A DNA stretch of 64,000 nucleotides from Ignavibacteriales bacterium (GTDB taxonomy: Bacteria > Bacteroidota > Ignavibacteria > Ignavibacteriales > SURF-24). Positions 12,224-39,300 of this stretch are shown piece after piece (the stretch's first letter is position 1; each line of letters opens with the position of its first letter). Under the pieces are notes generated by a model. It was not told where the DNA came from. It searched no databases and saw only the letters and a list, made by a program, of their open reading frames with translations. Location of the stretch: positions 2,041-66,040 of the forward strand of contig QZKB01000012.1 in assembly GCA_003599415.1 (NCBI GenBank), read 5' to 3'. The position numbers were made by a program, and so were the translations under genes.

Positions 12224-12871
12224 TTACAGTTCGCGTGTAAACTGTCTTTCTTCATATTCGGCAGCAGCTTCTTTTATTAATTGAAGCGCGTAAGGTTCTT
12301 CATCAAATTCAATATTGTTATAAATATCTGCAAGTTTAAGAATGCATTCGGCTGAATTGATCCGGAATTTATCTTTAAGTGAATTATATTCTTTGAGTTT
12401 CCATTCATCATTTTCGGATTTGGTATAATGAACAACACTAATCCTATCCTGTGCAACAAGAATATATTCATTAAGTGATTGGAGTTTGCGGTAAAATGAA
12501 AATTTCATTCCCCTGTCATAGCTTTCAGTTGATTTGGATAATACTTCAAAAATGACCACGGGATTTAATAATGTATCAGTAGTTTTATCAAGAAACAGAG
12601 GCTTGTTGCATACAACGGAAATATCAGGATACACAAAAGTGTTGTAATCTTTTATATAAACTTTCATATCTGTATGCAGAGCTTTACAACTGCTATTCTT
12701 TAGCTTCGAATGGAGTTTAGCTAAAATATTTCCGCAAATCAAATTGTGTTTGAACGTTGCTCCGGCAAGTGCATAAGTTTTACCGTTTCTGTATTCGTTC
12801 CTTCCCTCACTGGTCCGTTCAATCTCAAGATATTCTTCAACACTTAATAATTTATTTTTATTTGCCTGCAT
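12224..12871 (-). CDS. Uma2 family (DUF820) putative endonuclease
   Basis: N-terminal ...SVEEYLEIERTSEGRNEYRNGKTYALAGATFKHNLI..., then YPDISVVC and ...VVIFEVLSKST, the PD-(D/E)xK-like Uma2 pattern. Confidence 0.75.
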   Translation of the reverse strand: MQANKNKLLSVEEYLEIERTSEGRNEYRNGKTYALAGATFKHNLICGNILAKLHSKLKNSSCKALHTDMKVYIKDYNTFVYPDISVVCNKPLFLDKTTDTLLNPVVIFEVLSKSTESYDRGMKFSFYRKLQSLNEYILVAQDRISVVHYTKSENDEWKLKEYNSLKDKFRINSAECILKLADIYNNIEFDEEPYALQLIKEAAAEYEERQFTREL

Positions 12872-15570: not shown

Positions 15571-16059
15571 TTAAATAAACCTGTGAGTTATTGCCAAAAG
15601 AAGATTTATAAGAACAAGTACATTGGATAAAGTTATAACCGAGTATAAACCAGATAAATTTTTGAAGAAATTATCGTCAAGATTTTCGTTTGAATTTAAA
15701 TCTGAAATCAGCTTTGTTCTAAGAGCTTTAGCCTTGGGTACGATCAGAAAAGCTGTTAAAAAAACTAAAATCACCATTATGATTTGTTTAGTTGCAAGCC
15801 AATGGTTGGCAGAAAAATCGAAAAATCCGTAGAAAGGCAGATTGAGAACCAACAGAATACCCGTAACAAGAACACCTGTCATTCCAATTGCACCTGTTAA
15901 ATTCCCCTGTTTTAAATAGAAAGAAATAAACTTTTTCTGTTCAGGTTTTCCTTTGGAATTGGCGATATACTGACGAAGTAAAACATCAGCCGGAAGAAAA
16001 CTTAACCAGATAACGGCAGATAAAATATGAATAACAAGTAAAATTGCGTGATATAGCAT
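15571..16059 (-). CDS. Hypothetical 4-TM membrane protein
   Basis: Four hydrophobic helices. No family recognised. Confidence 0.45.
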   Translation of the reverse strand: MLYHAILLVIHILSAVIWLSFLPADVLLRQYIANSKGKPEQKKFISFYLKQGNLTGAIGMTGVLVTGILLVLNLPFYGFFDFSANHWLATKQIIMVILVFLTAFLIVPKAKALRTKLISDLNSNENLDDNFFKNLSGLYSVITLSNVLVLINLLLAITHRFI

Positions 16060-16162: not shown

Positions 16163-16876
16163 CTAATGTAAATATTCTTCGAAAAGAGATTCGAATTCTT
16201 CAATCGAATTCTGTTCTAATAAAAGAGAAATAAACTCTGCAAAGTTGTTTAATACAATTATTGAGTTTACAGTTGTATCCTGTAACTCAAGGTTGGCAAT
16301 TTTTTCACAAACGTACTGGTTTACAATTTTAATTTCCTCATAAGATTTAGCAAGGTTTTCAAGAAGCCAGTCCGGCTTTAATCCATTTGTGAACCTGAAA
16401 TATTGTGCAAGTAAGTACATAGAAAACGCTCTGAAAGCAGTCTCTTCGAGGGATGAAAACGGTAAATGAAACTTGACCAGAGGTTTTAGCTTTGCCATAA
16501 TTCTGCACCCGCTTGCAGTCATAAGAATTCCGATTAAAGAACCTACTGCTGTTTGAAGTGATGTCATTGTTGAATAAGTCCTTTCCTCAGTAATTACCTG
16601 GACGTTTATTTTTTCATAAGAAGGGAAAGTGCTGAAGAAAATTAAAATATCATCCAGCCCTGTGGCAACAGGGCAATAGTCACCAGGCTTTAATGATTGA
16701 ATACAGTTTGGACATGAAAAATTCTGATGCTGAGTCCAGCTGGAATGCGTATTCTTATTACTTATTAAATTTAATGTTGTCCTGTCTAACTTAATTTCAA
16801 ATTCTTTTTCCGTTCCATTCTGAAAAAAGAACTTATATGTAATTAAAATGTGCTGGCGTAAATTTTTTGTTGGCAT
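16163..16876 (-). CDS. Hypothetical Cys-rich protein, probable partner of the upstream giant ORF
   Basis: The start lies 27 nt downstream of the 1519-aa ORF on the same strand. It contains FSCPNC...DYCPVATG...ASGC cysteines. No family recognised. Confidence 0.6.
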   Translation of the reverse strand: MPTKNLRQHILITYKFFFQNGTEKEFEIKLDRTTLNLISNKNTHSSWTQHQNFSCPNCIQSLKPGDYCPVATGLDDILIFFSTFPSYEKINVQVITEERTYSTMTSLQTAVGSLIGILMTASGCRIMAKLKPLVKFHLPFSSLEETAFRAFSMYLLAQYFRFTNGLKPDWLLENLAKSYEEIKIVNQYVCEKIANLELQDTTVNSIIVLNNFAEFISLLLEQNSIEEFESLFEEYLH

Positions 16877-16903
16877 ATTTTCCTCTTAATAATTTCTACC
16901 ATG

Positions 16904-19900
16904 TTAAGTTAGAAATCTGACAAGTCCTCCAAAGTGACTATCAACTTTGAAGTGGAATTTCTTAAAAAAGTCTGTAAGATAAAAGTGGGTTGTTACTACT
17001 TTGTAACCTTTAACCGTCAACCGGTTGCAGAAATCCTCCAGTATATTTCCGCCAATGCCTCTTCCTCTGAATGGGGAAGCAAGCACAATTCCTTCTAAGT
17101 GCGCTATACCTTCATCAATTTCCCTGTAACATATACCGCCAATTATATTTTCAACTGATTCGTTTTCCAGTACAATCAAAAAACTATCTTCGGCTTTAAT
17201 GTTGGCAGGATAATCATCAAGAATGTATAACCTGTAAAGACTTGCTACTTCAAACGGTGAAAGAGCTTCTCTTATTACTAATTCTCCACCTTGTCCATCG
17301 GGAATATTTGTTTTAATGATTACGCTTTTAGTGTCCTCTTCTCCAACGGGCGTCAATTCCATTTTAACCGGATAAGATGTTTCTGGAAAAATCATTTTGC
17401 TGAATATAGTACGTTCGTCCTCGTTCTGTAAGCAATCCTGGAGTTCGGATAATTCAACAAATTGAGTTGCCGGATCATTTGGATGATGAGACATAACTCT
17501 TATTAATTTTTCAAAGCTGTCTTTCACTTCTGTGGATGATTTCCTGAAGTAGGTCTTCCTGTAAAACTCAAACCTTATTATTTCGGGAAATCTCTCAAGG
17601 TGATAAATCCAGTAAAGCTTTTTTATAAATTGTTCTTTAGCATCGCTTGTAGAAGATTGGTTTTCGGTAAGCCATTCATTATATCTTTCAATTGCTGCAA
17701 GCAGAGAAATATTTAAATAAGTTTCATCTTCAATTCGTTTTAAATAGCTTTCAAGTTCTTTTGTCAAATTAAGTTCATTGTAATTCTCCCTGGAATCTTT
17801 AAGCAGAGATAATAATTCCTTCAGTAGCAAAATGGCTTCATCTTTATCAAATGCTTCCATGAAAGAATCAAACAGCCAATCAATTTTTACAATACCACGA
17901 ACAACAGGGTAATGATTTATAGTCTGCAAAAAGAAATTATGCACAATAGGATCAATCAGAGAAAGTAAGTTTTTATATTTGCTATAACCCGATAAGGATA
18001 AAATCCTTGGATTCTCTTTGATATCAGATTCCGGTACTGCAACATTGCTCGGAGAAATATTGCCGGGAACAATTTCTCTTCCGCTGTTTTGCCAGGCGCG
18101 TAAAAATCCCGTTACACCTCGTACAATTAATATTTTCCACCTGAGAATATTTTTATCCGAAATTGATTTTTCTTTACTTGAGGAATACTCGCGGATTTTC
18201 TCCCATACATTCAATTCATTTATATAATCAAGAGAAGCTGAACCAAGCGAAGTTCTGAAATTACCGAAACGCGGAAGAACGGGGCTGCCGGTTGGATAAC
18301 CTGACATTCTTATCATCCAGTAAATCTGTTCCCGGATAGCCACCTGGTTGATGTCATCTTTTACCAGCAGCATTATATCGTAATGCTTGTTTGTTGTTGT
18401 GTTGATGCTGATCCTGTATAGAAAAACATTATGTGAGGAAATAATTTTGGAAATCCATATACCCTTATTTGTAACTGATTTCAGATTGAACTTATCTTCA
18501 TCATAAATAAGAAGAAGTGATTCCTTAAGAAATGTGGTTGTATATAAAGTTTTCTTGATTCGTTCAGTTTCATCCTTTGAAATTTCATCCTGGAAAATAA
18601 TTTTATCATCCCAGTTTTTTTGTTCCTTCTCAAAGGGAGTTAATTCAAAAGTCGATTCGAACCAAATAGCAAGCTGGTTAAACAATTCCTGCGCATATGC
18701 TGCAATAGAAGGTTCTTTCCTGTGCAGAATCCAGCTTATAAGTTCTTCCCGCACAACGCCGTAGTTGTTTCTGTTCTGTTTCGCAAAAGCAACAAGCAGG
18801 TCAAGAATTTTTTTAAATTGATTTACAGAAATACCCGAAACCGGCCATCTCAATTTTGTCCGGTAGGTCTCCAGTCTTTGTCTTAGAGCTTCCAATCTTC
18901 CTTTTTCAATATTGCTCTTGCAGATTATCTCGATACTTTTCTTATCAAGGAATGGCAAGCCGGAATTAATAAATGCGGGAAGATACTTGCTGTAATCTAA
19001 TCTTGGCTGATCAAATAATAAAATTCTGTAAGCAATGCTCCGTATGTCAAATTCGGGATGAAGAGCAAGCGTTTCAAGTCTTCTTCGTATCAGGTATTTC
19101 AGCCTGAAGTTTTCGGTATTCAGGAGTACTTCAAATTTTTTAACTGCAGTAAGAGAAGCTTCTTTACTGCCAAACAAAGCTTCCATCACTGTTTGATTGA
19201 TGCTTTTTAGTTTCTCATCAATCTTGAAATTAAAGTCATCAATCCTTGGTTTATTTCCCGTGATAAGGAAAACCTGCGTTGAGATGTTTTCAATTTCGGT
19301 ATCCCAACCGTCTTTACATTGAGCGAAATTAATTAATTGCGGATTACCGATCCACAATAGAGGATGCCGGATGAAGAGACCAAGGTCAATCTTATCATCA
19401 TTGGTAATATATTCAAGGTCGCCAATTTGAATTCTATCTGCCCGGTAATTCTTTTTGATTGCCAAGAGTGTTTTATTTACGCCGTTAAAAATTCCATCCT
19501 TCTGAATATGTAAATCGTATTCTGTAATTCCTAAATCCCTTATTAACCATCGGGGAATAAGAATCTTTATTTCTCCGGTTTTAAGTTCTACATTCTTATA
19601 CTTGTAAAGTTTGCTGATCTCTGATGAGTAATGTTCGGATATTACTTTTCTTTTATAGGTGCCCTTGGAAGTCAGTTCGCCTTTTGTCTCTTCAAAGTCT
19701 CTCTCTAAAATTGTAAAGTCAATTATCCTTTCGTATGAGGCGAGGTTTGAATTGGCCGTGGAGATAATCGGCAGGAAATATTCAATAACTTTTTTCTTTG
19801 CAAGCGTCTTTTTAAGAACCGGTTCATTATAATCCGGAACAATTAAAAGAGTATTATAAGACTGACCATCTCCAACAAGGAATGTCCTTTTAATTCCGGG

Positions 19901-21463
19901 AACCGATTCAAAAAGTTTTTCAATTTTTTGTGGGGCAATGGTTTGTCCCTTTGTGTTTTTGTAAATGTCTTTAACTCTGTCAACAATAAACAAAAAACCA
20001 TTTTCATCCTGTTTAAATAGATCACCTGTTTGCAGCCATTCTTTGTTAATGTTTATTTCCAGGTCGTCAAGGTACTTTGCAACATATACACCGGATATTT
20101 CAAGTTCCTGTTTTTCATTAAACCTGATTTTAATTCCCGGCAATGGAATGCCGACCGAGTCTTTAACATATTCTCCTGGTGGAGTCATGCTTATTCCGCC
20201 GGTAGCTTCGGTCATTCCAAATCCGCTGCAAAGTTGTACATCATTTTCATTAAAGAAGGTAAACACTTTATGATCGAGATAACCGGCTGCTGATAAGCCC
20301 CACCTTAATTTAGTGCCAACGATGCTTTGCAAAAGTTTTTTGTCTTTGGTTCTGGCAGACTTTGCAAGAAATTTTTCTCTTATCTGTACCCATCTTAAAG
20401 GAATACTTATCAAACCGGTAGGATTTAATTTCTGCATTAACATTATCAAAGTTTCTGCAGAAGGATTTCCCGCGAAAGCATAAGTGCCGCCCCAGAAAAT
20501 CATTCCCATTAATTCAAGGTATCGTCCAAACGTATGATAAAGCGGTAGATAACACAACAATAATTCATCATGACCAACATCAGGAAGAGCGGCTGCGCGT
20601 GCAAATCGTTTTGTAATCAGGTTGTAAATTGAATAGACCACACCTTTTGCATTCCCGGTGCTTCCTGAAGTAAACATAACAGTAGCAGGTTCATTAAGTG
20701 CAAGACGTTTTCTTTTTAGAAGAAGCTGCTCTGTTAAATTAACATCGAGCTTTGCAATGGACTTTTCTAATTCAAGTACTTCCAGTTTATCCTTTAACTT
20801 TTCATTACCTGTATAAATTATTGTAAAGCTTAATCCTTCTTTTTCTTTCAGGTTAAGTAGTCTTGATAACCTGACATCATCATCAGTTACTGCAATGTTT
20901 ATTTTTAACCGGTTAAAAATGTCAGCTAAGGTATCAACATTGAAGTGGACATTAAGCGGTGTATCAAGAATATCGTACATAAGGCAGGCAATATCGCAGC
21001 TGGCAGAGTCTAATGAGTTGTCCATAAAGATAGCCACACGCGGTTCAGATTCAATTGAAAAGAAAAGAGAAGCGATTTGCCTTGTACGTCTTTCAACCCA
21101 TTTATAACTAAAGTTGAAAACCTTTTCACCATTGATTGTTTTGAATAAAGGTTTGTCAGGGTGGGCGTTTACTCTTTGTTCAAACAAATCAAGAAAATTA
21201 AAGTTTATTTTTTTTATAATTTGGAAAGTAACATCTGCCCACCTGTAGCGGCTTTGCCTGTCCGGTAGTGAATTAAGAAATTCCGGCTTTCTTGTTACAT
21301 CAAGGAATGTACGCAGAAAATTTATATCGTTGGATTGCAAATTATTTTGTAAAACAGATTCTGCTTCGGAGAGTATTTCCAGAGCTTTTTCAGGATCTAT
21401 CTTTGTTGCATTGTTTATTATTTCAAAATCCTGTTCAAAAGAATATATATTCGTACTGGTCAT
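16904..21463 (-). CDS. Giant fusion: AMP-forming acyl-CoA synthetase-like (ANL) domain, ~770-aa unknown core, and C-terminal GNAT acyltransferase
   Basis: ANL motifs are TSGSTGNAKG (res 265-274), YHTFG, GFGMTEATG, TGD..DRVKD and KGTYKRK. The GNAT tail has ...LASPFRGRGIGGNILEDF... at res ~1460-1480. It is a single uninterrupted 4560-nt ORF. Confidence 0.85.
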   Translation of the reverse strand: MTSTNIYSFEQDFEIINNATKIDPEKALEILSEAESVLQNNLQSNDINFLRTFLDVTRKPEFLNSLPDRQSRYRWADVTFQIIKKINFNFLDLFEQRVNAHPDKPLFKTINGEKVFNFSYKWVERRTRQIASLFFSIESEPRVAIFMDNSLDSASCDIACLMYDILDTPLNVHFNVDTLADIFNRLKINIAVTDDDVRLSRLLNLKEKEGLSFTIIYTGNEKLKDKLEVLELEKSIAKLDVNLTEQLLLKRKRLALNEPATVMFTSGSTGNAKGVVYSIYNLITKRFARAAALPDVGHDELLLCYLPLYHTFGRYLELMGMIFWGGTYAFAGNPSAETLIMLMQKLNPTGLISIPLRWVQIREKFLAKSARTKDKKLLQSIVGTKLRWGLSAAGYLDHKVFTFFNENDVQLCSGFGMTEATGGISMTPPGEYVKDSVGIPLPGIKIRFNEKQELEISGVYVAKYLDDLEININKEWLQTGDLFKQDENGFLFIVDRVKDIYKNTKGQTIAPQKIEKLFESVPGIKRTFLVGDGQSYNTLLIVPDYNEPVLKKTLAKKKVIEYFLPIISTANSNLASYERIIDFTILERDFEETKGELTSKGTYKRKVISEHYSSEISKLYKYKNVELKTGEIKILIPRWLIRDLGITEYDLHIQKDGIFNGVNKTLLAIKKNYRADRIQIGDLEYITNDDKIDLGLFIRHPLLWIGNPQLINFAQCKDGWDTEIENISTQVFLITGNKPRIDDFNFKIDEKLKSINQTVMEALFGSKEASLTAVKKFEVLLNTENFRLKYLIRRRLETLALHPEFDIRSIAYRILLFDQPRLDYSKYLPAFINSGLPFLDKKSIEIICKSNIEKGRLEALRQRLETYRTKLRWPVSGISVNQFKKILDLLVAFAKQNRNNYGVVREELISWILHRKEPSIAAYAQELFNQLAIWFESTFELTPFEKEQKNWDDKIIFQDEISKDETERIKKTLYTTTFLKESLLLIYDEDKFNLKSVTNKGIWISKIISSHNVFLYRISINTTTNKHYDIMLLVKDDINQVAIREQIYWMIRMSGYPTGSPVLPRFGNFRTSLGSASLDYINELNVWEKIREYSSSKEKSISDKNILRWKILIVRGVTGFLRAWQNSGREIVPGNISPSNVAVPESDIKENPRILSLSGYSKYKNLLSLIDPIVHNFFLQTINHYPVVRGIVKIDWLFDSFMEAFDKDEAILLLKELLSLLKDSRENYNELNLTKELESYLKRIEDETYLNISLLAAIERYNEWLTENQSSTSDAKEQFIKKLYWIYHLERFPEIIRFEFYRKTYFRKSSTEVKDSFEKLIRVMSHHPNDPATQFVELSELQDCLQNEDERTIFSKMIFPETSYPVKMELTPVGEEDTKSVIIKTNIPDGQGGELVIREALSPFEVASLYRLYILDDYPANIKAEDSFLIVLENESVENIIGGICYREIDEGIAHLEGIVLASPFRGRGIGGNILEDFCNRLTVKGYKVVTTHFYLTDFFKKFHFKVDSHFGGLVRFLT

Positions 21464-21494
21464 TGGCTTCCGGCTTTCTTTACCCGTAATAATA

Positions 21495-22700
21495 ATGATT
21501 ATGAAATTGAAAATCTTCTTATTAATTTTCGGCGAAATTAACAGATGTTTGCCAACTAAACAAAATGATGAGGGATTTAGTTTGAAAAATAAACGCCTGC
21601 TTTTTATAGACCTGCTTCGCGGCTGGGCTTTACTTGTAATGATTGAAGTTCACGTCTTTAATGCATTCCTTAAACCTGAAATAAAATTACAATCCTGGTT
21701 TGGTTATCTTAACTTTATAAACGGATTGGTAGCGCCCTCATTCCTTTTTATATCCGGTTTTGCATTTATGATAGCAAGCCAGAGAAAACTTGAGGACTTC
21801 AGGAAATATGGTTATGCATTCTGGCGGCAGATAGGCAGGATATTACTTATATGGGGAGTCGGATACTCATTACACATTCCATTTTTATCACTCCATAAGA
21901 TGCAGACAAGAGTAGAACCGGAAATGTGGCGACAGTTTTTTGCCGTGGATGTTTTACAATGTATCGCATTCGGATTGCTGCTTATGTTTGTCTTAAGATT
22001 GCTGATAAAGTCCGATAAAATTTATAACCTTGTAATTGTTGTGCTTGGAATTATAAGTGCGGTTGTTGCTCCTTTCATTGAACATATTGATTTCTCTCTG
22101 TATATGGCAAAGCCAGTAGCAGCATATATAAATTCGTTTAACGGTTCATTGTTTCCTCTTTTTCCATGGCTGGGATTTATGCTTGCCGGTGGAATTGCAA
22201 GCTCTCTTTATTCTAAAGCAAAGGAGGGGAATTACGAGGAAAAGTATTTAAAACAGACTTTGTATGGTTCGCTCGTTGTTCTTGTGATATCATATGCGTT
22301 GTTATATATTCCGGCTATTGGAGATTTCAAACCGAGTCCTGTCTTTTTTCTTGAAAGACTTGCAATAGTGTTATTGTTAATGGTTGGTTTACGCTATTAT
22401 GAACTTTGGAGGAAAACAGAGAAATCTTTTGTCCTTGATGTGGGCAGGGAATCGCTTCTTATTTACTGGCTGCATCTGCAGGTTATCTACAGGAAATTCT
22501 GGGATGACAAGAGTATGGAGAATATTATCAACTTCAGTATGAATGTTCTTGAAGCAATCGGCTCAACTTTGTTATTGGCATTTCTTATGGTAATTGCAGC
22601 TAAAATCTGGGGAGCATTTAAAAAACGTTATAAGAAAACATCGCAGTACATTGTTGCAGCGGTTGTGATTGGAGTAATTGGATATTTCTTTCTGATGTGA
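21495..22700 (+). CDS. DUF1624/heparan-alpha-glucosaminide N-acetyltransferase-like polytopic membrane acyltransferase
   Basis: RLLFIDLLRGWALLVMIEVHVFNAF N-terminal signature and about 10 TM helices. The start is moved to the ATG at 21495 to avoid overlapping the divergent giant ORF. Confidence 0.65.
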   Translation: MIMKLKIFLLIFGEINRCLPTKQNDEGFSLKNKRLLFIDLLRGWALLVMIEVHVFNAFLKPEIKLQSWFGYLNFINGLVAPSFLFISGFAFMIASQRKLEDFRKYGYAFWRQIGRILLIWGVGYSLHIPFLSLHKMQTRVEPEMWRQFFAVDVLQCIAFGLLLMFVLRLLIKSDKIYNLVIVVLGIISAVVAPFIEHIDFSLYMAKPVAAYINSFNGSLFPLFPWLGFMLAGGIASSLYSKAKEGNYEEKYLKQTLYGSLVVLVISYALLYIPAIGDFKPSPVFFLERLAIVLLLMVGLRYYELWRKTEKSFVLDVGRESLLIYWLHLQVIYRKFWDDKSMENIINFSMNVLEAIGSTLLLAFLMVIAAKIWGAFKKRYKKTSQYIVAAVVIGVIGYFFLM

Positions 22701-24430: not shown

Positions 24431-25318
24431 TTATCTTAGAAGCACCATCTTCTTTGTTTGTGAGTAATCAGAAAACCTGATATTATAAAAATATATTCCC
24501 GAAGAGACATCGTTACCAAGATAGTCTTTACTATCCCATATAGCAGTGCAACTACCTGTAGTTTTATATTCGTTTACCAGTGTTCTTATTTCTCTTCCAA
24601 GAATATCAAGAATTATTAATTCAACATTACAGGCTTCCGGTAAATCAAATTTTATTGCTGTAGTTGGATTAAATGGATTTGGAAAATTATCATACATCTT
24701 AAACGAGGAAATTTTCGAATCAGAATTACTATTCACAGATGTTGATGTAGAGTAAGAAGATAATGTCCAGGTTCTTACACCAAAGTAACTATCTGAAATA
24801 AATTTAATCAGTCCAACATCTTTTGCGAGCCAGGAATCGAGAGCTCCGGCATCCATACATTTTTTTATGTGATAAAAATGAAAACACTGAGTGAAATTTT
24901 CTACAAATGTTGAAACCGTGTCTTCTCCACCATAAAAAACAGTACTTGAACCATAATTGCATATATAATCCGGGTGTATTGTCAATCTATCCCCAACATT
25001 TGCATTTAGAATGAAGATAGGGCTTTCGTTCCTGTGATTAACAGTATCCAATGTGTAGACCGTATCGTTAGATACTCTGAAAAAGGTAAGGTAATCTGAA
25101 TCATTTATTCGCATTCCATAGTAAAATTTTCCGTCAAATCTTGCTATAGCAACTATTTCTTTATTTACAGTAATTGTTTTGTAAGTATAAGTCCAGCGGT
25201 AACCAATTTTCAGTGGGAAATAACCAGATGGCACTTCATCAATCTGAGCAAAATTTTTTGATAGAATGAATAACGCAGTAATTAGAAAAGATAAAAACAA
25301 GATCCACTTGATTTTCAT
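24431..25318 (-). CDS. Secreted protein with T9SS C-terminal sorting domain
   Basis: Signal peptide. C-terminal NFPNPFNPTTAIKF...GIYFYNI...MVLLR tail. Confidence 0.7.
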   Translation of the reverse strand: MKIKWILFLSFLITALFILSKNFAQIDEVPSGYFPLKIGYRWTYTYKTITVNKEIVAIARFDGKFYYGMRINDSDYLTFFRVSNDTVYTLDTVNHRNESPIFILNANVGDRLTIHPDYICNYGSSTVFYGGEDTVSTFVENFTQCFHFYHIKKCMDAGALDSWLAKDVGLIKFISDSYFGVRTWTLSSYSTSTSVNSNSDSKISSFKMYDNFPNPFNPTTAIKFDLPEACNVELIILDILGREIRTLVNEYKTTGSCTAIWDSKDYLGNDVSSGIYFYNIRFSDYSQTKKMVLLR

Positions 25319-32468: not shown

Positions 32469-34937
32469 CTACTTGCTCTTCCTGGTTTCCTTATTGTTCT
32501 TTTTATTGTTTGAATTTGGTTTTGCCGGTTTACTTCTTTTATGAAGCAGTTTCAATTTCTTTTCTACAAGTCCGAAAACCGTATTTGCTTCGTAACTTCC
32601 ATTCTTCAATAATTTACCGGCTTTTATTCCTGTAAGCAATTCAATTGCTTCTTCAATTCTACTAATGGAATAAATATGGAATTCACCGTTTTCAACAGCT
32701 TCAACAACTTCATCTTTAAGCATAAGATTTTTTACATTTTGAATGGGAATAATTACACCTTGCTTTTTATTCAAACCTCTCGCCTTGCAAACATCAAAAA
32801 ATCCTTCAACCTTTTCATTAACGCCGCCAATCGGTTGAACGTCTCCTTTTTGATTTACAGAACCGGTAATTGCAAAGTACTGTCTAAGGGGAATGTCTGA
32901 AAGTGTGGAGACAAGCGCACATATTTCTGCGCAGGAAGCGCTGTCGCCGTCAATCATTCCGTAGCCCTGTTCAAAAACCACACTTGCGGTAAATGAAAGC
33001 GGGTTCTTTTGTCCAAATGTTTCCCTGAAATACCCTGTAATAATCAGCATTCCTTTGTTATGCGTGTTGCCGCTTAATCCCGCTTCGCGTTCAACGTTAA
33101 TAATATTTCCTGTTCCCAAAGAAACGCTTGCAGTTATTCTTGTTGGTTTACCGAAAGAATAGAAATCGTTTCCATAAATAGCAAGGCCGTTAACCTGGCC
33201 GATTCTTTCTTTGTCAGAATCAATCATTATATCATTATCAAGTATCATCTCGGAAACTTTGTTTTCATACAAACCATGTCTTTCCTTAGAATTATTATAA
33301 GCCTGGGATACATCGTAATCAGTTGCAATCTTATTGCCGTTATCTTTAGCCCAGAAGTTTGATTCTCTTAATAAGTCTGCGATGAAAGAAAATCTTGTTG
33401 TAAGCTTATTCTGATCATCTGCATAGCGGGAAGCATATTCAATTACTTTAGAGATTGCCTCCCTGTTAAACTCCATCAGCCCTTCGCTTTCGATTATTTT
33501 CTTTATTACCTGGATATACTGTTCAATTGTTTTGTTGCTGCGATTCATCTCGTAGTCAAAATCAGCTTTTATTTTGAAAATCTTCTTAAAGTCATCTTCA
33601 TAAGAGGCAAGGACAGAGTACAGGTAATTGCTGCCGATAAAAATTATTTTTGTGTTAATGTCTACAGGTTCCGGTTTTAACAGTACAGGTGAGAACTGGA
33701 AATAACTTACAAGATCCTGTATTTCAAGCTTGCCGTACATTAAAACTCTTTTCATGGATTTCCAAACGCCTGTTTCCTGGAATGCATCAAGCGCATTTAA
33801 AACCAGGTAACCTCCGTTAGCTTTTAATAACGAGCCCGCTTTTATCCTTGTGAAATCAGCATACCATCCGCCTTTACCATCGGAAAATTTTTCTATTGTG
33901 CCGAATATATTGTTATAGGTAGGAGTTGTTTCAATCACTATCGGGCACTCGTGTGTATTTGAATTATCTAAAATAATATTTACTTCGTATTCCTTGAAGT
34001 AATCAATTATAATTCCTTCTTCGGTCTGTTCTGTTTTAGGTTTTGTCCCTTTGAAAACATCGAGCGAGTTATAAATATTATTTTCAACCTGCGCAAGATA
34101 TTTATGAATTTTTTCATCCTGGTATTTTTCCATTAAGCTGCTTATTGCTGCCTTAACAATTACCTCAACATTTTCTTTTTCAAGGTTCTGTACTTTCTCC
34201 TGGTATTGCTGGCTTAACAGTATTCCTTTTTTGAAAATACTCTGAAGTTCTTCCTGGTACATTGCATACTTGTGAGTAATTTCGGCAGCTTTCTTCTTCT
34301 CTATTTTACCTAATCTTATCTGTTCTTCAAGTTGCTGAATAAATATTGGTTGATTATCAAGGACAAACAAAACTTCAGGTCTGAACGCTTCGCCCACTTT
34401 AACCTGCCCAAGTGAAAAACTTTCTTTCTTTAGCTTCTCTTCAAAATTAGACATCAGTTCATTTTCTTTACTGCTGAATTCTGTTATTATCTTTTTCCTT
34501 TGTTCCTTAAAGTGCTTTCCTTCCAATGCCTGCGGAATTTTTGACTGAAGATATTGAATGGTGGAATTGAAATCGTGTTTGAATTTCTGCGCTTCGCCGG
34601 CTTTGAATACTAAAAGTATCGGTTCGTTTTCATTATCAAAATTATTAACATATGCATAATCGTAAAGCTTTGGGCATTGGGGGCGGATAGCCTCAAGCAT
34701 TTTCTTAACTGTTGTTAGTTTTCCTGTGCCGGATAAACCTGTAATAAAAATATTATATCCGGCGCTCCATAATTCAACACCAACTTTTAATGCTTTAAGG
34801 GCGCGCTCCTGCCCTATAATTTCCTGGATTGAAGGAACGTTTGAAGTGGATTCAAATTTGAAAAAATCAGGATCAACTTTTAATTTTAAATCTGATGGTT
34901 TTAGCTGCGGGTGTTTAGGAGCTTTTAAGTAAGTCAT
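32469..34937 (-). CDS. Lon-related protease (AAA_32-like ATPase-type domain plus Lon_C S16 protease domain)
   Basis: P-loop-like ITGLSGTGKLT, a long helical insertion, and a Lon protease domain with ...DGDSASCAEICALVS (Ser) and downstream GGVNEKVEGFF (Lys). I prefer the ATG at 34937 over the TTG at 35027. Confidence 0.8.
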   Translation of the reverse strand: MTYLKAPKHPQLKPSDLKLKVDPDFFKFESTSNVPSIQEIIGQERALKALKVGVELWSAGYNIFITGLSGTGKLTTVKKMLEAIRPQCPKLYDYAYVNNFDNENEPILLVFKAGEAQKFKHDFNSTIQYLQSKIPQALEGKHFKEQRKKIITEFSSKENELMSNFEEKLKKESFSLGQVKVGEAFRPEVLFVLDNQPIFIQQLEEQIRLGKIEKKKAAEITHKYAMYQEELQSIFKKGILLSQQYQEKVQNLEKENVEVIVKAAISSLMEKYQDEKIHKYLAQVENNIYNSLDVFKGTKPKTEQTEEGIIIDYFKEYEVNIILDNSNTHECPIVIETTPTYNNIFGTIEKFSDGKGGWYADFTRIKAGSLLKANGGYLVLNALDAFQETGVWKSMKRVLMYGKLEIQDLVSYFQFSPVLLKPEPVDINTKIIFIGSNYLYSVLASYEDDFKKIFKIKADFDYEMNRSNKTIEQYIQVIKKIIESEGLMEFNREAISKVIEYASRYADDQNKLTTRFSFIADLLRESNFWAKDNGNKIATDYDVSQAYNNSKERHGLYENKVSEMILDNDIMIDSDKERIGQVNGLAIYGNDFYSFGKPTRITASVSLGTGNIINVEREAGLSGNTHNKGMLIITGYFRETFGQKNPLSFTASVVFEQGYGMIDGDSASCAEICALVSTLSDIPLRQYFAITGSVNQKGDVQPIGGVNEKVEGFFDVCKARGLNKKQGVIIPIQNVKNLMLKDEVVEAVENGEFHIYSISRIEEAIELLTGIKAGKLLKNGSYEANTVFGLVEKKLKLLHKRSKPAKPNSNNKKNNKETRKSK

Positions 34938-35146
34938 AATTTCAACCTTAGTTATTTTCAATAATGGTAGGTGTAAAATATGGAAAATAGGAAATAATAA
35001 ATAGCCTGTGTTTCTTACTGAAAGCAAAAATATTCTTCCTTAAATCCGACATAGAAAATAAAAAGAAACAGTTTAAAGAATAAAAAAGGGATTAACTATG
35101 AAGAAGAAAAATCACCGATGGGTGAAAAATAAAGCGATAGATTTTT

Positions 35147-36315: not shown

Positions 36316-39300
36316 ATGACAACTAAAAAATCACTCGGTATTTGCATCGGCGCAAGTTCAATCTCAACTGTAAAACTGAACAGGCATTTAAACAGTTTTG
36401 AAATTGATTTGGTGGAAACTATTGTTCACAACGGAAATCCTTCCTTAGTCCTAAAAGAAATTTTCAAAGGTGATATTCCAAATCGTATTGCTGTAACCGG
36501 GAAAAAGTTCAGAACGTTTCTGAATCTGCCATCCATATCGGAAGCTGAAGCAATAGAACTCGCTCTGGATAAGCTTAATTTAACCGCAGATCTTGTAATT
36601 AGTATAGGCGCAGAAAATTTTATTGTTTACCAGTTGGATAAGAAGAATAAAATCTCAAAGGTATCAACTGGAAATAAATGCGCTTCCGGTACAGGTGAAT
36701 TCTTTTTACAGCAGATAAAAAGAATGGATATGAATGTAAATGAGGCTGTTAAACTTGGGCTTAAAGGAGAGCCATATAACATTTCGGGAAGATGCTCGGT
36801 GTTCTGTAAATCGGATTGCACACACGCACTTAATAAAGGCGTGCCCAAAGAAAATGTTGTTGCCGGTCTTTCCCGCATGATGGCAAATAAAATTATTGAA
36901 CTTACTGCAAAAGTACCGCACAAGTCTGCAATTATTATCGGCGGCGTTACTAAAAATAAAGCTATGCTCCGCTTTCTTGATGATCACTTTGATAGCATTA
37001 TAATTCCCGAAGAAGCTGCATACTTTGAAGCTGTCGGCGCAGCATTGTTTGCTTTAGAAAACCAACAGGTTGAGTTGAATAAAGAAAAATTATTCTTTGA
37101 TGGTCATTCTTCTTTCACATTCCATAAACCATTAAGGGAATTTTCATCTAAAGTTACATTCAGAGAATCAACGCGGGGAAATGTAAAAGAAAATGATGTT
37201 TGTATTCTTGGTCTTGATGTCGGCTCAACAACTACAAAGGCAATCCTGTTAAGAAAGAAAGATAACCTGATTCTTGCATCAGAATATTTACGAACTAACG
37301 GAGATCCTGTAAAAGCATCTGTTGAATGTTATAAAAGTATCTACTCGCAAATTAATGTTACTGTTAGAATTATTGGATTGGGTGTAACCGGTTCAGGCAG
37401 GTACATTGCCGGGCTTCATGCTTTAACAAAAGGAATTATAAACGAAATAATTGCACATGCTTCCGCAACGGTTTTTTTTGATAAAGAGGTTGATACCATT
37501 TTCGAAATCGGCGGGCAGGATGCTAAGTATACTTACATCACTTCCGGCATTGCTTCAGATTATGCAATGAATGAAGCCTGCTCTGCCGGTACAGGTTCAT
37601 TCCTTGAAGAATCCGCAAAGGAATCTTTGGATATTGATTATAAGGAAATTGGTAAGATTGCTTTAACAGCAACTAACCCGCCTAACTTTAATGATCAGTG
37701 TGCGGCATTTATAAGCAGCGATATTAAAAATGCACTTCACGAAGGACTTGAAAAGGACGACATTGTCGCCGGGCTTGTTTATTCAATTTGTATGAACTAC
37801 AACAACAGGGTAAAAGGAAACAGGCCCGTTGGTAAAAAGATTTTTATGCAGGGCGGCGTTTGTTATAATAAAGCTGTTCCTGTTGCAATGGCAGCATTAA
37901 CAGGTAAGGAAATCATTGTTCCTCCCGAGCCCGGACTGATGGGAGCATTCGGAGTTGCACTTGAAATTAAAAACAGAATAAATCTAGGATTACTTGCGGA
38001 AGAGGATTTTAGTCTTGAAAATCTAATCAACAGAAAAGTTGAGTATGAAAAATCTTTTGTCTGTGCCGGCGGAGCAGAGAAGTGCGATAGAAAATGCGGC
38101 ATCTCCGTAATTAAAATTGAAGGAAAGAAATATCCATTCGGCGGTGCCTGCAATAAATATTACAATCTTCAGCTTGATATAAAAACATCTTCAAATGAAT
38201 ATGATTTAGTGAAACTCAGGCAGCATCTTGTATTCGAAAAATATATTCAGCCTTTGCCTGTGGATATTGATGTTCCCGTGATTGGAATTTCAAAATCATT
38301 TCTTACAAATACTCTCTACCCGCTCTATTATAATTTCTTTACTCAGCTTGGATTTAAAGTAATTGTTGGAGATGAAGCAAAGCATGAAGGAATTGACAAG
38401 AAAGAGTCTTCGTTCTGTTACCCGGTTGAATTAGCTCATGGTTTCTTCCAGGATTTGATTGGCAGAAAACCGGATTATATTTTTCTTCCTCATATAACTG
38501 AGGTAAGCGGCCAAGATAAAGATAAAAGGAGTAAGACCTGTGTGCTGCTCCAGTCGGAAAGTTATTATCTTAAGACAACATTTAAAGACGAGTTGAACGG
38601 AATTAAAATTCTTTCACCGCTTCTGAATTTTTCAGATGGATATAATTCGGCAAAGAATTCATTTGTTAAACTTGCAGGCGAATTAAGAATTACAAAAGCT
38701 GCTGCATCTGCAGCCTTTGATTTTGCTATTGGTAAATTAAATGAAATGTTTGATGAGTTTAAAAGTATCGGGAAAGAATTTTTATCTCAACTTGAAAAAG
38801 ACAAGTCAAAGTTTGCTGTTGTTCTGTTCGGCAGAAGCTACAACTCATTTGCTAAGGAAGCAAATCTTGGAATTCCACGGAAGTTTGCATCAAGAAATAT
38901 TCACATTATTCCACATGACTTTTTATTCCCGGATGAATCTGACAGCTACAGGCATATGTACTGGGGATTGGGCCAGCAGATTTTAAGAAACGCACGGTTC
39001 GTAAAAAATCATCCGCAGTTATTCGGAACATTCATAACAAATTTCAGTTGCGGACCGGATTCATTCATTATCGGTTACTTCCGCGAAATTATGGGAAGCA
39101 AACCGTCATTAACTCTTGAACTCGATAGTCATTCAGCCGATGCGGGTATTAATACGAGAATAGAAGCTGCAATAGATATAATTAAAAGCTACAGAGAGCT
39201 GAATAAAAATATTGATAAACCTTCAGCAGCCAAAAGATACCGCCCGTTAAAGGTAATAGATTCGCATTGGATTGAAGATTCCTTTGGCAATAAAATATCA

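What the first reader, a model, noticed from the sequence alone, without database searches (positions are those of the whole stretch)
16163..22700. 1519-aa adenylase / unknown core / GNAT fusion with a Cys-rich partner: candidate undescribed acyl-activation plus N-acylation system
**Seen in the sequence**
- One uninterrupted ORF (16904-21463, minus) starts with a complete AMP-forming ANL domain of the long-chain acyl-CoA synthetase type. Motifs are TSGSTGNAKG at res 265-274 (nt ~20641-20671), YHTFG, GFGMTEATG, TGD...DRVKD and KGTYKRK near res 600.
- It ends with a compact GNAT domain at res ~1395-1519. The acyl-CoA binding loop is FRGRGIGG.
- About 770 residues between them fit no family I can name.
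- A 237-aa protein with CPNC / CPVATG / SGC cysteines follows 27 nt downstream on the same strand.
- A DUF1624 (HGSNAT-like) membrane acyltransferase is transcribed divergently, only about 31 nt from the giant ORF start.

**Established knowledge**
- Pat-type protein acyltransferases fuse an NDP-forming acyl-CoA-synthetase-like domain to a GNAT.
- N-acyl amino acid synthases are GNAT-fold enzymes.

**Inference**
This protein could activate a carboxylate through its ANL domain and hand it on, or sense it, for N-acylation of a protein or small-molecule amine. Three acyl-handling activities clustered together would be consistent with that. I know of no characterised protein with this architecture.
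Basis: partly seen in the sequence, partly recalled or inferred. Interest (0 to 1): 0.72.

Follow-up and report, generated by a model that had tools for sequence, protein, structure and literature searches.

The report
Uncharacterised giant acyl-activating acyltransferase fusion
A 1519-residue bacterial protein joins a fatty-acid-activating enzyme to a histone-acetyltransferase-like domain through a kinase-shaped scaffold; this exact layout is conserved in hundreds of genomes across many phyla and has never been studied, but the two neighbouring genes proposed as its partners are not part of it.

Summary
ORF 16904-21463(-) encodes 1519 aa with an intact AMP-forming (ANL, ACSL-type) domain and a C-terminal GNAT, and every quoted motif sits at the stated position.

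The "unknown core" now resolves into three parts:
- a confidently predicted beta/alpha domain with no match among solved structures;
- an alpha-helical domain;
- an atypical protein-kinase-like fold (best structural matches Vps34 PI3K) without the canonical catalytic Lys/Asp.

The GNAT profile is closest to Gcn5 protein acetyltransferases. The full architecture is fixed in at least 460 species genomes (Ignavibacteriota, Zixibacteria, Gemmatimonadota, Fibrobacterota, Acidobacteriota, Marinimicrobia and others). The core never occurs outside it.

The partner idea fails:
- DUF6901 follows the gene only in the same genus.
- The HGSNAT-like gene is adjacent only in close Ignavibacteriales.
- No neighbour is conserved across phyla.

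Best reading, inferred only: a self-contained enzyme in which the ANL domain makes an acyl-CoA that the GNAT transfers to an amine, probably a protein lysine. The main rival is Pat/AcuA-like self-regulation of the ANL domain. I found no characterised member and no literature. I rate it a new variant of known kinds, of moderately high interest.

The parts
16904..21463 (-). Whole gene: 1519-aa ANL / beta-alpha / helical / kinase-like / GNAT fusion protein. No TM-like segment, so presumably cytosolic.
21185..21463 (-). N-terminal extension (res 1-93) ahead of the Pfam ANL match, conserved within the family (L54 and W75 at 90% or more).
20120..21184 (-). ANL N-terminal domain (PF00501, res 94-448). 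P-loop K273, E419/T421 (A5) and H310 are invariant.
19604..20119 (-). ANL hinge and C-terminal subdomain (res 449-620; PF23562 AMP-binding_C_3 from res 504). D481, R496, K498, K600 and R605 are conserved. Closest solved relatives are carboxylic acid reductase A domains.
19259..19603 (-). Beta/alpha domain (res 621-735). The most conserved non-ANL segment (G681, Y685, N707 invariant; P637, W639, P701, W704 at 90% or more). pLDDT 88.8, with no sequence or fold match in the PDB.
18494..19231 (-). All-alpha (solenoid-like) domain, res 745-990.
17384..18493 (-). Atypical protein-kinase-like fold with a C-terminal helical extension (res 991-1360). G1001, R1017, D1029, G1067, W1124, N1140, D1147 and S1156 are conserved. 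There is no conserved beta3 Lys, and the position equivalent to the HRD Asp (1135) is variable.
16907..17371 (-). GNAT domain (res 1365-1519). R-G-R-G-I-G loop at 1466-1471, acidic residue at 1457, R1398/E1405/R1481 conserved. The profile is closest to Gcn5 histone acetyltransferase.
16163..16876 (-). Adjacent DUF6901 gene (237 aa; conserved C55/C58/C68/C124), 27 nt downstream. Probably co-transcribed here, but NOT a conserved partner of the family.
21495..22700 (+). Divergent HGSNAT_cat/Acyl_transf_3 membrane acyltransferase. Adjacent to the giant only in close Ignavibacteriales, so not part of the conserved unit.

Best explanation
The gene encodes a self-contained, cytosolic, two-activity acyl-transfer enzyme.

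**Step 1 (inferred from intact motifs).** The ACSL-type ANL domain adenylates a carboxylate, probably a medium- or long-chain fatty acid, and thioesterifies it to CoA.

**Step 2 (inferred).** The acyl-CoA made in cis is used by the C-terminal Gcn5-like GNAT to N-acylate an amine acceptor. The acceptor is most likely a protein lysine or N-terminus, and less likely a small amine or amino acid.

**Middle module (inferred).** The roughly 750-residue module comprises a beta/alpha domain with no PDB match, an alpha-helical domain and an atypical kinase fold. It is predicted to form one compact body with the GNAT. I propose it acts as a scaffold and/or ligand (nucleotide/CoA) sensing module, not as a phosphotransferase.

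**Neighbouring genes.** The enzyme works without dedicated neighbours. The adjacent DUF6901 and HGSNAT-like genes are lineage-specific neighbours, not partners.
For: **Shown**
- Pfam ANL N- and C-domains and the GNAT score above their cut-offs.
- ANL catalytic residues K273, E419, T421, D481, R496, K498 and R605 are invariant or nearly so, and K600 is present in 65 of 68 sequences spanning 26-76% identity.
- The GNAT R/Q-x-x-G-x-G/A loop is conserved, position 1457 is D/E in 62 of 68, and R1398, E1405 and R1481 are conserved.
- The GNAT profile hits Tetrahymena GCN5 at E 1.2e-7.
- Foldseek GNAT matches include the protein acetyltransferases Ard1, HP0935 and Gcn5.
- Domain order and length are fixed in at least 460 species genomes and in a second clade at 20-30% identity. 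The middle region occurs only in this architecture.
- The AF2 model of res 621-1519 has pLDDT 86.4 and pTM 0.78, which indicates a confident multi-domain assembly.
- No conserved neighbour exists, neighbour orientation is random and the surroundings are housekeeping genes.
- No TM segment was found.

**Established knowledge (two-step precedents)**
- ACSM2B plus GLYAT in glycine conjugation.
- Drosophila Ebony, which combines an A domain with a GNAT-like amine-selecting domain.
Against: - No biochemical datum exists for any member.
- Free acyl-CoA diffuses, so fusion is not required for coupling.
- Substrate and acceptor are unknown.
- The ANL scores far below every curated NCBIfam equivalog cut-off (for example 141.7 against 476).
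- In alignments to carboxylic acid reductase A domains, their A10 lysine falls on S/T602, and the family's invariant K600 lies two residues upstream. Adenylation competence is therefore likely but not proven.
- Gcn5-like GNATs usually prefer short acyl-CoAs, which fits poorly with an ACSL-type long-chain activating domain.
- The kinase-fold module keeps a conserved polar set (R1017, D1029, N1140, D1147, S1156), so a purely structural role is not established.
Confidence: 0.4

Rival explanations
1. Self-regulated acyl-CoA synthetase. The physiological output is acyl-CoA. The tethered Gcn5-like GNAT acylates the ANL domain's own catalytic-loop lysine (K600), in cis or within an oligomer, using acetyl-CoA or the enzyme's own product. 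This switches the enzyme off, as Pat and AcuA do to ANL enzymes. The kinase-fold/helical module would be the effector-sensing domain, analogous to the large regulatory domain of Pat or the cAMP/ACT domains of type III acetyltransferases.
For: - The classic, best-studied protein substrates of bacterial GNAT lysine acetyltransferases are AMP-forming CoA ligases. AcuA forms a stable 1:1 complex with AcsA (abstracts of PMC4053389 and PMC11255334 listed; review PMC11254643).
- The GNAT is closest to protein acetyltransferases.
- K600 is near-invariant.
- The conserved acceptor-side residues, combined with the absence of any conserved partner gene, fit an intramolecular target.
Against: - The Pat recognition context PxxxxGK is absent. 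The loop reads E-L-T-P-K-G-S/T-x-x-R-K.
- About 900 residues would be a very large regulatory appendage.
- No solved Pat-type GNAT appears among the sequence or structural hits.
- I could not examine model coordinates to see whether K600 can reach the GNAT site.
Confidence: 0.3
2. Three-activity enzyme. The kinase-fold domain is catalytically active with non-canonical residues (phosphorylation, AMPylation or similar, as in SelO- or SidJ-type atypical kinases, or LvaA/ACAD10-type acyl-CoA kinases). The protein would then carry out activation, phospho- or nucleotidyl-transfer and N-acylation on one substrate.
For: - The kinase-like fold is supported by Foldseek (Vps34 E 3e-6 to 1e-4; corramycin phosphotransferase 1.9e-4; many protein kinases).
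- A polar set is conserved in both clades (R1017, D1029, N1140, D1147, S1156).
- The position equivalent to the HRD Asp (1135) is Asp in 11 of 23 members of the distant clade.
Against: - In the window's clade, position 1135 is variable (A/L/Y/S/N).
- No conserved beta3 Lys is present.
- By my reading of the predicted secondary structure, the DFG-equivalent position is a conserved Ser.
- The profile of the domain finds no kinase in the PDB by sequence (0 hits at E<=10) and no Pfam kinase family.
Confidence: 0.1
3. The giant protein, the Cys-rich DUF6901 protein and the divergent HGSNAT-like membrane acyltransferase would act together in one acyl-activation and acylation pathway.
For: - In this genome the DUF6901 gene lies 27 nt downstream with no terminator-like site between, so co-transcription is likely.
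- The HGSNAT-like gene stays divergent from the giant in 5 Ignavibacteriales genomes.
Against: - DUF6901 is adjacent only in the same-genus contig among the 80 loci examined.
- DUF6901 has a different phyletic spread (Elusimicrobia, Nitrospirota, Deltaproteobacteria), and three other DUF6901 contexts lack the giant.
- The HGSNAT family is 3 of 61 immediate upstream neighbours once the same-genus L001 is set aside, and is next to the giant only in L001, L003, L004, L005 and L008 overall.
Confidence: 0.03
4. Carrier-dependent NRPS/CAR/Ebony-like enzyme. The ANL domain would load a covalently attached phosphopantetheine or cysteine in the following domain, and the GNAT-like domain would act as the condensation/amine-selecting domain.
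For: - The ANL C-terminal subdomain aligns best with carboxylic acid reductase A domains, which are followed by a carrier domain.
- Ebony provides a precedent for A-T-GNAT-like logic (established knowledge).
Against: - There is no PP-binding Pfam hit.
- The domain after the ANL is beta-rich, not a four-helix bundle.
- It has no Ser, Cys or Lys conserved across both clades. C716 is present in only 31 of 45 close and 2 of 23 distant members.
Confidence: 0.03

Closest known systems
Pat/YfiQ/PatZ-type (type I/II) bacterial lysine acetyltransferases
   Same: A large multidomain protein with a C-terminal GNAT preceded by a domain related to acyl-CoA synthetases. ANL enzymes are the functional partners of this system.
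   Different: - The Pat N-terminal domain is NDP-forming-type and catalytically inactive (PMC11254643). Here the domain is AMP-forming (ANL) with invariant catalytic residues.
- No CoA_binding, ATP-grasp or Succ_CoA_lig Pfam hits.
- An extra beta/alpha, helical and kinase-fold module is present.
- The GNAT is closer to Gcn5 than to any solved Pat.
AcsA-AcuA complex (Bacillus) and Acs/Pat reversible lysine acylation
   Same: An ANL enzyme physically associated with a GNAT that targets the lysine of its catalytic loop (PMC11255334).
   Different: - Those are separate small proteins with a dedicated acu operon.
- Here there is one polypeptide, an ACSL-type rather than acetyl-CoA-synthetase-type ANL, no PxxxxGK motif, and about 750 intervening residues.
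ACSL/FadD11/FadD15-type long-chain acyl-CoA synthetases and carboxylic acid reductase A domains
   Same: PF00501 plus PF23562 (AMP-binding_C_3). The best NCBIfam hits are long-chain-fatty-acid--CoA ligases, FadD11 and carboxylic acid reductase. The best PDB hits are 5msc and 6oz1.
   Different: - Scores are far below every curated equivalog cut-off.
- The family has a roughly 90-residue N-terminal extension and a roughly 900-residue C-terminal extension.
- The A10 lysine is displaced by two residues in alignment.
Class III PI3K Vps34 (helical plus kinase domains) and other protein-kinase-like folds
   Same: An alpha-helical domain followed by a bilobal kinase-like fold. Top Foldseek matches have E 3e-6 to 1e-4 over about 560-620 aligned columns.
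   Different: - TM-scores are low (0.2-0.34) and rmsd is 14-18 A.
- There is no sequence-level similarity.
- The canonical Lys, HRD Asp and DFG Asp are not conserved.
- The resemblance is at fold level only and does not amount to membership.
Gcn5/PCAF histone acetyltransferase catalytic domain
   Same: The best profile-to-PDB match of the GNAT domain is E 1.2e-7 over beta4-alpha4. The pyrophosphate loop is conserved, and an acidic residue lies on beta4.
   Different: - The acidic residue lies two positions after the one that aligns with the Gcn5 catalytic Glu (my reading of the alignment; which Glu is catalytic is from memory).
- The invariant residues D1477, F1478 and R1481 are specific to this family.
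- The bromodomain and other partner domains are absent.
Two-step carboxylate conjugation systems (mammalian ACSM2B plus GLYAT; Drosophila Ebony A-T-GNAT-like)
   Same: An ANL activation step followed by GNAT-fold N-acyl transfer. This is the logic proposed here (established knowledge).
   Different: - The mammalian pair consists of separate enzymes.
- Ebony uses a phosphopantetheinyl carrier domain, which is not detected here.

Membership tests
ANL superfamily (AMP-forming adenylating enzymes) | Pfam AMP-binding domain scoring above the gathering threshold | tested here: met
   PF00501 scores 160.9 bits against a cut-off of 29.9, over res 94-448.
ANL superfamily (AMP-forming adenylating enzymes) | Core motifs: A3 P-loop T/S-G-S-T-G-x-P-K-G, A5 (x-T-E), A7 (T-G-D) and A8 (R-x-K-D) | tested here: met
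   All are present at res 265-274, 414-422, 479-481 and 495-499. K273, E419, T421, D481, R496 and K498 are invariant or near-invariant in 68 sequences.
ANL superfamily (AMP-forming adenylating enzymes) | A10 catalytic lysine in the C-terminal subdomain | tested here: inconclusive
   K600 is present in 65 of 68 sequences and R605 in all 68. In HMMER alignments to carboxylic acid reductase A domains, their loop lysine aligns with S/T602, two residues after K600.
Long-chain-fatty-acid--CoA ligase (ACSL/FadD-type) | ACSL-type C-terminal domain (PF23562) | tested here: met
   PF23562 scores 55.5 bits against a cut-off of 20.8.
Long-chain-fatty-acid--CoA ligase (ACSL/FadD-type) | A score above a curated equivalog cut-off | tested here: not met
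   The best NCBIfam hit, NF004837, scores 141.7 against 476. All others are also far below their cut-offs.
Long-chain-fatty-acid--CoA ligase (ACSL/FadD-type) | Demonstrated long-chain fatty acid and CoA substrate use | not testable with these tools
   This requires an enzyme assay.
GNAT superfamily | Pfam GNAT domain above threshold, and the GNAT fold | tested here: met
   PF00583 scores 31.5 bits against a cut-off of 20.7. Foldseek matches GNAT structures with target-normalised TM-scores of 0.57-0.70.
GNAT superfamily | Acyl-CoA pyrophosphate-binding loop R/Q-x-x-G-x-G/A | tested here: met
   The window has R1466-G-R-G1469-I-G1471. G1469 is present in 62 of 68 sequences, and position 1471 is G/A/S.
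Pat/YfiQ-type (type I/II) lysine acetyltransferase | An NDP-forming acyl-CoA synthetase-like domain (700-900 aa) fused to the GNAT | tested here: not met
   No CoA_binding, Succ_CoA_lig or ATP-grasp Pfam hit was found. The N-terminal domain is AMP-forming. The definition is taken from PMC11254643.
Protein-kinase-like / PI3K-PI4K superfamily | Bilobal kinase fold | tested here: met
   Foldseek probability is 1.00 to Vps34, corramycin phosphotransferase, Bud32 and many protein kinases. The query model has pLDDT 86.4.
Protein-kinase-like / PI3K-PI4K superfamily | Conserved catalytic residues: beta3 Lys, catalytic-loop Asp and Asn, DFG Asp | tested here: not met
   Only the Asn (N1140) is conserved. 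Position 1135 is variable in the window's clade, there is no conserved beta3 Lys, and Ser1156 occupies the DFG-equivalent position by secondary-structure mapping. The mapping was made without coordinates and is therefore approximate.
Protein-kinase-like / PI3K-PI4K superfamily | Detectable sequence homology to a kinase family | tested here: not met
   No Pfam kinase hit was found. The profile of res 986-1220 finds no PDB chain at E<=10.
NRPS / carboxylic acid reductase / Ebony-type carrier-dependent enzymes | A phosphopantetheine-binding carrier domain with a conserved Ser after the A domain | tested here: not met
   No PP-binding hit was found. The following domain is beta-rich and has no conserved Ser or Cys across the clades.
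DUF6901 (adjacent gene) | Full-length match to PF21842 | tested here: met
   E 1e-66 over positions 1-222 of the 222-position profile. C55, C68 and C124 are invariant and C58 is at least 90% conserved.
Conserved operon partner of the giant protein (DUF6901, HGSNAT-like) | Adjacency is maintained next to homologues in other lineages | tested here: not met
   DUF6901 is adjacent in 1 of the 80 loci examined. The HGSNAT-like gene is adjacent in 5 distinct contigs, all close Ignavibacteriales. Reciprocal DUF6901 contexts lack the giant.

The most novel reading that the evidence does not exclude
The family is a previously unrecognised class of bacterial acyltransferase machine. An active acyl-CoA synthetase is hard-wired, through a PI3K-like helical and kinase-fold scaffold and a beta/alpha domain with no counterpart among solved structures, to a Gcn5-like acyltransferase. 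On this reading a free carboxylate, possibly a long-chain fatty acid, is converted directly into a protein or metabolite N-acyl mark. That would be a prokaryotic counterpart of local acyl-CoA supply to eukaryotic acetyltransferase complexes. The kinase-fold domain might retain a nucleotide- or CoA-dependent activity or sensing role.
Probability: 0.12. Interest if true: 0.85.

Novelty: new variant of a known kind. Interest (0 to 1): 0.6.

Why it matters
- If the ANL and GNAT activities are coupled, this would be the first bacterial acyltransferase that makes its own acyl-CoA donor from a free acid. It would also add a sixth architecture to the current five-type scheme of bacterial lysine acetyltransferases, and it might write long-chain acyl marks.
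- If the GNAT instead regulates the ANL domain, this would be a fused enzyme-plus-regulator version of the Pat/Acs paradigm, applied to fatty-acid activation.
- In either case the family is large (at least 460 species genomes), strictly conserved and spread across poorly studied phyla: Ignavibacteriota, Zixibacteria, Gemmatimonadota, Fibrobacterota, Acidobacteriota, Marinimicrobia, KSB1 and NC10.
- It contains about 750 residues without any family assignment. These include a confidently predicted domain with no match among solved structures and a bacterial helical-plus-kinase-fold module that resembles PI3K.
- It is annotated only as "GNAT family N-acetyltransferase" or "long-chain acyl-CoA synthetase".

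Tried and rejected
- **Conserved partner genes.** tblastn and phmmer of all window neighbours against the fetched loci, all-vs-all clustering of ORFs within 8 kb and a Pfam census of immediate neighbours found no conserved partner. The commonest cluster, PAS/His-kinase-like, is in 16 loci and is a generic family.
- **Reciprocal test from DUF6901**. No giant gene is nearby, and DUF6901 has no conserved downstream gene.
- **Sequence-level identification of the core.** Pfam and NCBIfam, phmmer against the PDB and profiles of the beta domain and the kinase-like core against the PDB all gave nothing.
- **Fold of the beta/alpha domain.** The best Foldseek match to the PDB has E 0.47, so there is no match.
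- **Defence-system hypothesis.** PADLOC gave no hit. There is no GC anomaly and the context is housekeeping.
- **Carrier-protein hypothesis.** Rejected, because no conserved Ser or Cys is present.
- **Promoter and terminator scan.** Uninformative, at or below shuffle expectation.
- **Literature.** Five searches found no description of the architecture or of DUF6901.
- **Not possible.** Model coordinates and PAE are not available, so I could not test whether K600 can reach the GNAT site or whether the conserved kinase-fold residues cluster in a pocket.

Full report
**1.

The ORF list gives 16904-21463(-) 1519 aa, 16163-16876(-) 237 aa and a divergent ORF ending at 22700.
- TSGSTGNAKG 265-274
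- YHTFG 309
- GFGMTEATG 414
- TGD 479
- DRVKD 495
- KGTYKRK 600
- FRGRGIGG 1465

Other checks:
- The gap to the 237-aa gene is 27 nt.
- The realistic ATG of the divergent gene is at 21495, 31 nt from the giant's start codon. The mechanical TTG start at 21330 lies inside the giant gene.
- Pfam places AMP-binding at res 94-448 (5e-47), AMP-binding_C_3 at 504-621 and Acetyltransf_1 at 1416-1505, with nothing credible between.
- The 237-aa protein is a full-length DUF6901 (1e-66).
- The divergent gene is HGSNAT_cat/Acyl_transf_3, with about 8 hydrophobic segments.
- The giant has no TM-like segment.
- Base composition is flat across the window, and the surrounding genes are housekeeping: dxr, rseP, a fabK-like gene, metK, ahcY, purU, a Lon-like gene and uvrB.
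- The nearest public contig is an uncultured Melioribacter sp. (94% aa identity, fully syntenic). The window is therefore from an Ignavibacteriota chromosome.

**2. The family**

The full-length search returned more than 2000 hits. The 120 listed cover 97-100% of the query at 43-94% identity and are 1516-1590 aa long (one, P0033, is 1394 aa at 91% coverage). Their only names are "GNAT family N-acetyltransferase", "AMP-binding protein" or "long-chain acyl-CoA synthetase".

The lineages include Ignavibacteriales, Zixibacteria, Krumholzibacteriota, Gemmatimonadota, Fibrobacteraceae, Acidobacteriota, NC10, Calditrichota, environmental Bacteroidales, Kapaibacteria and a few Polyangia and Gammaproteobacteria.

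An exhaustive HMMER search with the middle region alone (res 621-1395) against 1.84 billion representatives gave only 299 hits. Among the 150 listed, the match sits at about residues 540-710 to 1300-1560 of proteins of about 1420-1710 aa, or in shorter proteins whose offsets are consistent with truncated gene calls. The core therefore appears to exist only inside this architecture.

A distant clade at 20-30% identity (1500-1640 aa; it includes Marinimicrobia and a second Ignavibacteriales form) has the same ANL, C_3 and GNAT Pfam pattern.

All parts are under selection. Per-domain tblastn identities:

| Locus | Lineage | ANL | Middle | GNAT |
|---|---|---|---|---|
| L007 | Zixibacteria | 51% | 42% | 47% |
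| L040 | Gemmatimonadales | 47% | 36% | 39% |
| L071 | Acidobacteria | 50% | 33% | 43% |

**3. The partner idea fails**

- Across the 80 homologous loci examined (up to 10 kb of flank), DUF6901 follows the giant only in L001, the same genus. phmmer at E<=10 finds no other copy.
- The HGSNAT-like gene is divergent from the giant only in L001, L003, L004, L005 (L002 is the same contig) and L008. All are Melioribacteraceae or close Ignavibacteriales, and a fabK-like gene is also retained in most of them. This is ordinary local synteny.
- Clustering of all ORFs within 8 kb finds no family in more than 16 loci, and that one is a generic PAS/His-kinase cluster.
- Immediate neighbours are oriented at random: 32 divergent and 29 co-directional upstream, 46 convergent and 29 co-directional downstream.
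- No Pfam family occurs in more than 5 of 61 upstream or 75 downstream neighbours.
- In the reciprocal test, DUF6901 homologues occur in Ignavibacteria, Elusimicrobia, Nitrospirota and Deltaproteobacteria. In three other contexts, including another Melioribacteraceae genome, no giant gene is nearby.
- DUF6901 does carry a conserved four-cysteine set (C55, C68 and C124 invariant; C58 at least 90%). It is nevertheless an independent gene.

**4. Anatomy of the "unknown core"**

An AlphaFold2 model of res 621-1519, built with 45 aligned homologues, has mean pLDDT 86.4 and pTM 0.78. Secondary structure and conservation divide it as follows:

- **Beta/alpha domain, res 621-735.**
  - This is the most conserved non-ANL segment, even in the distant clade. 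G681, Y685 and N707 are invariant, and P637, W639, P701 and W704 are at 90% or more.
  - Its profile finds nothing in the PDB by sequence.
  - Modelled alone it has pLDDT 88.8, and its best Foldseek match has E 0.47. It has no recognisable solved relative.
- **All-alpha domain, about res 745-990.**
- **Bilobal kinase-like fold with a helical extension, about res 991-1360.**
- **GNAT, res 1365-1519.**

Foldseek of the whole model against the PDB is led by:
- class III PI3K Vps34 helical-plus-kinase structures (E 3e-6 to 1e-4, 560-620 aligned columns, TM 0.2-0.34);
- corramycin phosphotransferase (1.9e-4);
- many protein kinases and Bud32;
- GNAT structures for the C-terminus.

The kinase resemblance is at fold level only. 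There is no Pfam kinase hit, and a profile of the kinase-like core finds no PDB chain at E<=10.

Mapping the motif P-G-x-x-S-P-x-N-V-V-V-P-E-x-D-F onto the predicted strands gives the following picture:
- Only the catalytic-loop Asn (N1140) is conserved.
- The position equivalent to the HRD Asp (1135) is variable in the window's clade, although it is Asp in 11 of 23 distant-clade members.
- There is no conserved beta3 Lys.
- A conserved Ser (1156) sits where the DFG motif would be.
- A polar set (R1017, D1029, N1140, D1147, S1156) is conserved in both clades.

A ligand pocket is therefore plausible and canonical phosphotransfer is not. This mapping was made without coordinates and is approximate.

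**5. The catalytic ends**

*ANL domain*
- K273, E419, T421, D481, R496, K498 and R605 are invariant or nearly so, and K600 is present in 65 of 68 sequences.
- The C-terminal subdomain is PF23562 (ACSL-type). By sequence it is closest to carboxylic acid reductase A domains (6oz1, 5msc).
- In those alignments the reductases' loop lysine falls on S/T602, and K600 lies two residues upstream. This is a caveat for the A10 assignment.
- NCBIfam places the domain nearest to long-chain-fatty-acid--CoA ligases, FadD11 and carboxylic acid reductase, but far below every curated cut-off. Substrate class is suggested, not shown.
- From memory, not tested: the A8 region (DRVKDIYKNTKGQTIAPQKIE) resembles the ACSL pattern (DRKKHIFKLAQGEYIAPEKIE).

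*GNAT domain*
- The R-x-x-G-x-G/A loop is conserved, position 1457 on beta4 is D/E in 62 of 68, and R1398, E1405 and R1481 are near-invariant.
- A 22-sequence profile of the domain hits Tetrahymena GCN5 at E 1.2e-7 as its best PDB match.
- Structural matches include Ard1, HP0935 and human Gcn5.
- The domain looks most like protein acetyltransferases.

**6. How it most likely works**

Shown:
- The protein has two apparently competent catalytic centres of known chemistry.
- A large conserved module without canonical catalytic residues lies between them.
- The architecture is fixed.
- There are no dedicated partner genes.

Inferred, best reading (0.4): the ANL domain makes an acyl-CoA that the Gcn5-like GNAT, held nearby by the scaffold, transfers to an amine. 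The acceptor is probably a protein lysine or N-terminus. Precedents for this two-step logic are ACSM2B plus GLYAT, and Ebony (established knowledge).

Main rival (0.3): the output is acyl-CoA, and the GNAT acylates the ANL's own loop lysine as feedback. This is the known relation between GNATs and ANL enzymes (Pat/Acs, and the stable AcuA-AcsA complex; PMC4053389, PMC11255334, PMC11254643).
- In its favour: the GNAT resembles protein acetyltransferases, and there is no partner gene.
- Against it: the PxxxxGK context is absent, and the appendage is very large.

The last is weakened by the lack of a PP-binding hit and of a conserved Ser or Cys in the domain that follows the ANL.

**7. Comparison with what is known, and novelty**

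The current classification of bacterial lysine acetyltransferases (types I-V; PMC11254643) contains no type with an AMP-forming domain or a kinase-fold module.
- The protein is not a Pat-type enzyme. The defining NDP-forming domain was tested and is not met.
- It is not a member of any curated acyl-CoA ligase equivalog.
- It is not a sequence-detectable kinase.

Five literature searches found no description of the architecture or of DUF6901, and no defence-system model matches.

I classify it as a new variant of known kinds: a new multidomain ANL-GNAT architecture with an unassigned roughly 750-residue module. It is not categorically new, because both catalytic chemistries are familiar. Interest is 0.6. 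The family is large, strictly conserved, phylogenetically broad and wholly uncharacterised, and it contains a possibly new fold. Its function remains inferred, and the operon part of the original finding is refuted.

Noticed in passing
window 36316-40686 (+): A second very large ORF (1456 aa) with two BcrAD_BadFG ATPase stretches and DUF2229. It looks like a fused CoA-enzyme activase-type protein.
   Followed up: no
window 16163-16876 (-): DUF6901 has a conserved four-cysteine set (C55, C68 and C124 invariant; C58 at least 90%), which suggests a metal or Fe-S site. The family occurs in Ignavibacteria, Elusimicrobia, Nitrospirota and Deltaproteobacteria in unrelated gene contexts, and no paper mentions it.
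   Followed up: partly
window 15571-16059 (-): A 162-aa hydrophobic protein with weak, sub-threshold similarity to HemJ/UPF0093 (TIGR00701 9e-5; PF03653 3e-4). It lies between DUF6901 and dxr. It is not homologous to the genes that follow DUF6901 in other genomes.
   Followed up: partly
homologues P0195, P0202, P0207, P0219, P0236, P0257 (no window coordinates): A second, deeply diverged clade (20-30% identity, 1500-1640 aa; it includes Marinimicrobia and Ignavibacteriales members) has the same architecture. In about half of its members an Asp occupies the position equivalent to the kinase HRD Asp, which hints that the kinase-fold domain may once have been, or in that clade still is, active.
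   Followed up: partly
loci L003-L081, immediate neighbours of the giant homologues: Central-metabolism genes recur weakly next to the gene in different phyla: citrate synthase 2+2, aconitase 2, isocitrate dehydrogenase 2, glutamine synthetase 3 and cytochrome bd 4. PrsW-family proteases are the commonest downstream neighbour (5 of 75). None is frequent enough to call a partner.
   Followed up: no
window 12224-12871 (-) and 24431-25318 (-): A Uma2-family putative endonuclease gene and a T9SS C-terminal sorting-domain protein flank the region. The T9SS signal fits an FCB-group (Ignavibacteriota) origin.
   Followed up: no
window 32469-35027 (-): An 852-aa LonB/LonC-like AAA protease, with AAA_32, LonB_AAA-LID, LonC_helical and Lon_C domains.
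   Followed up: no
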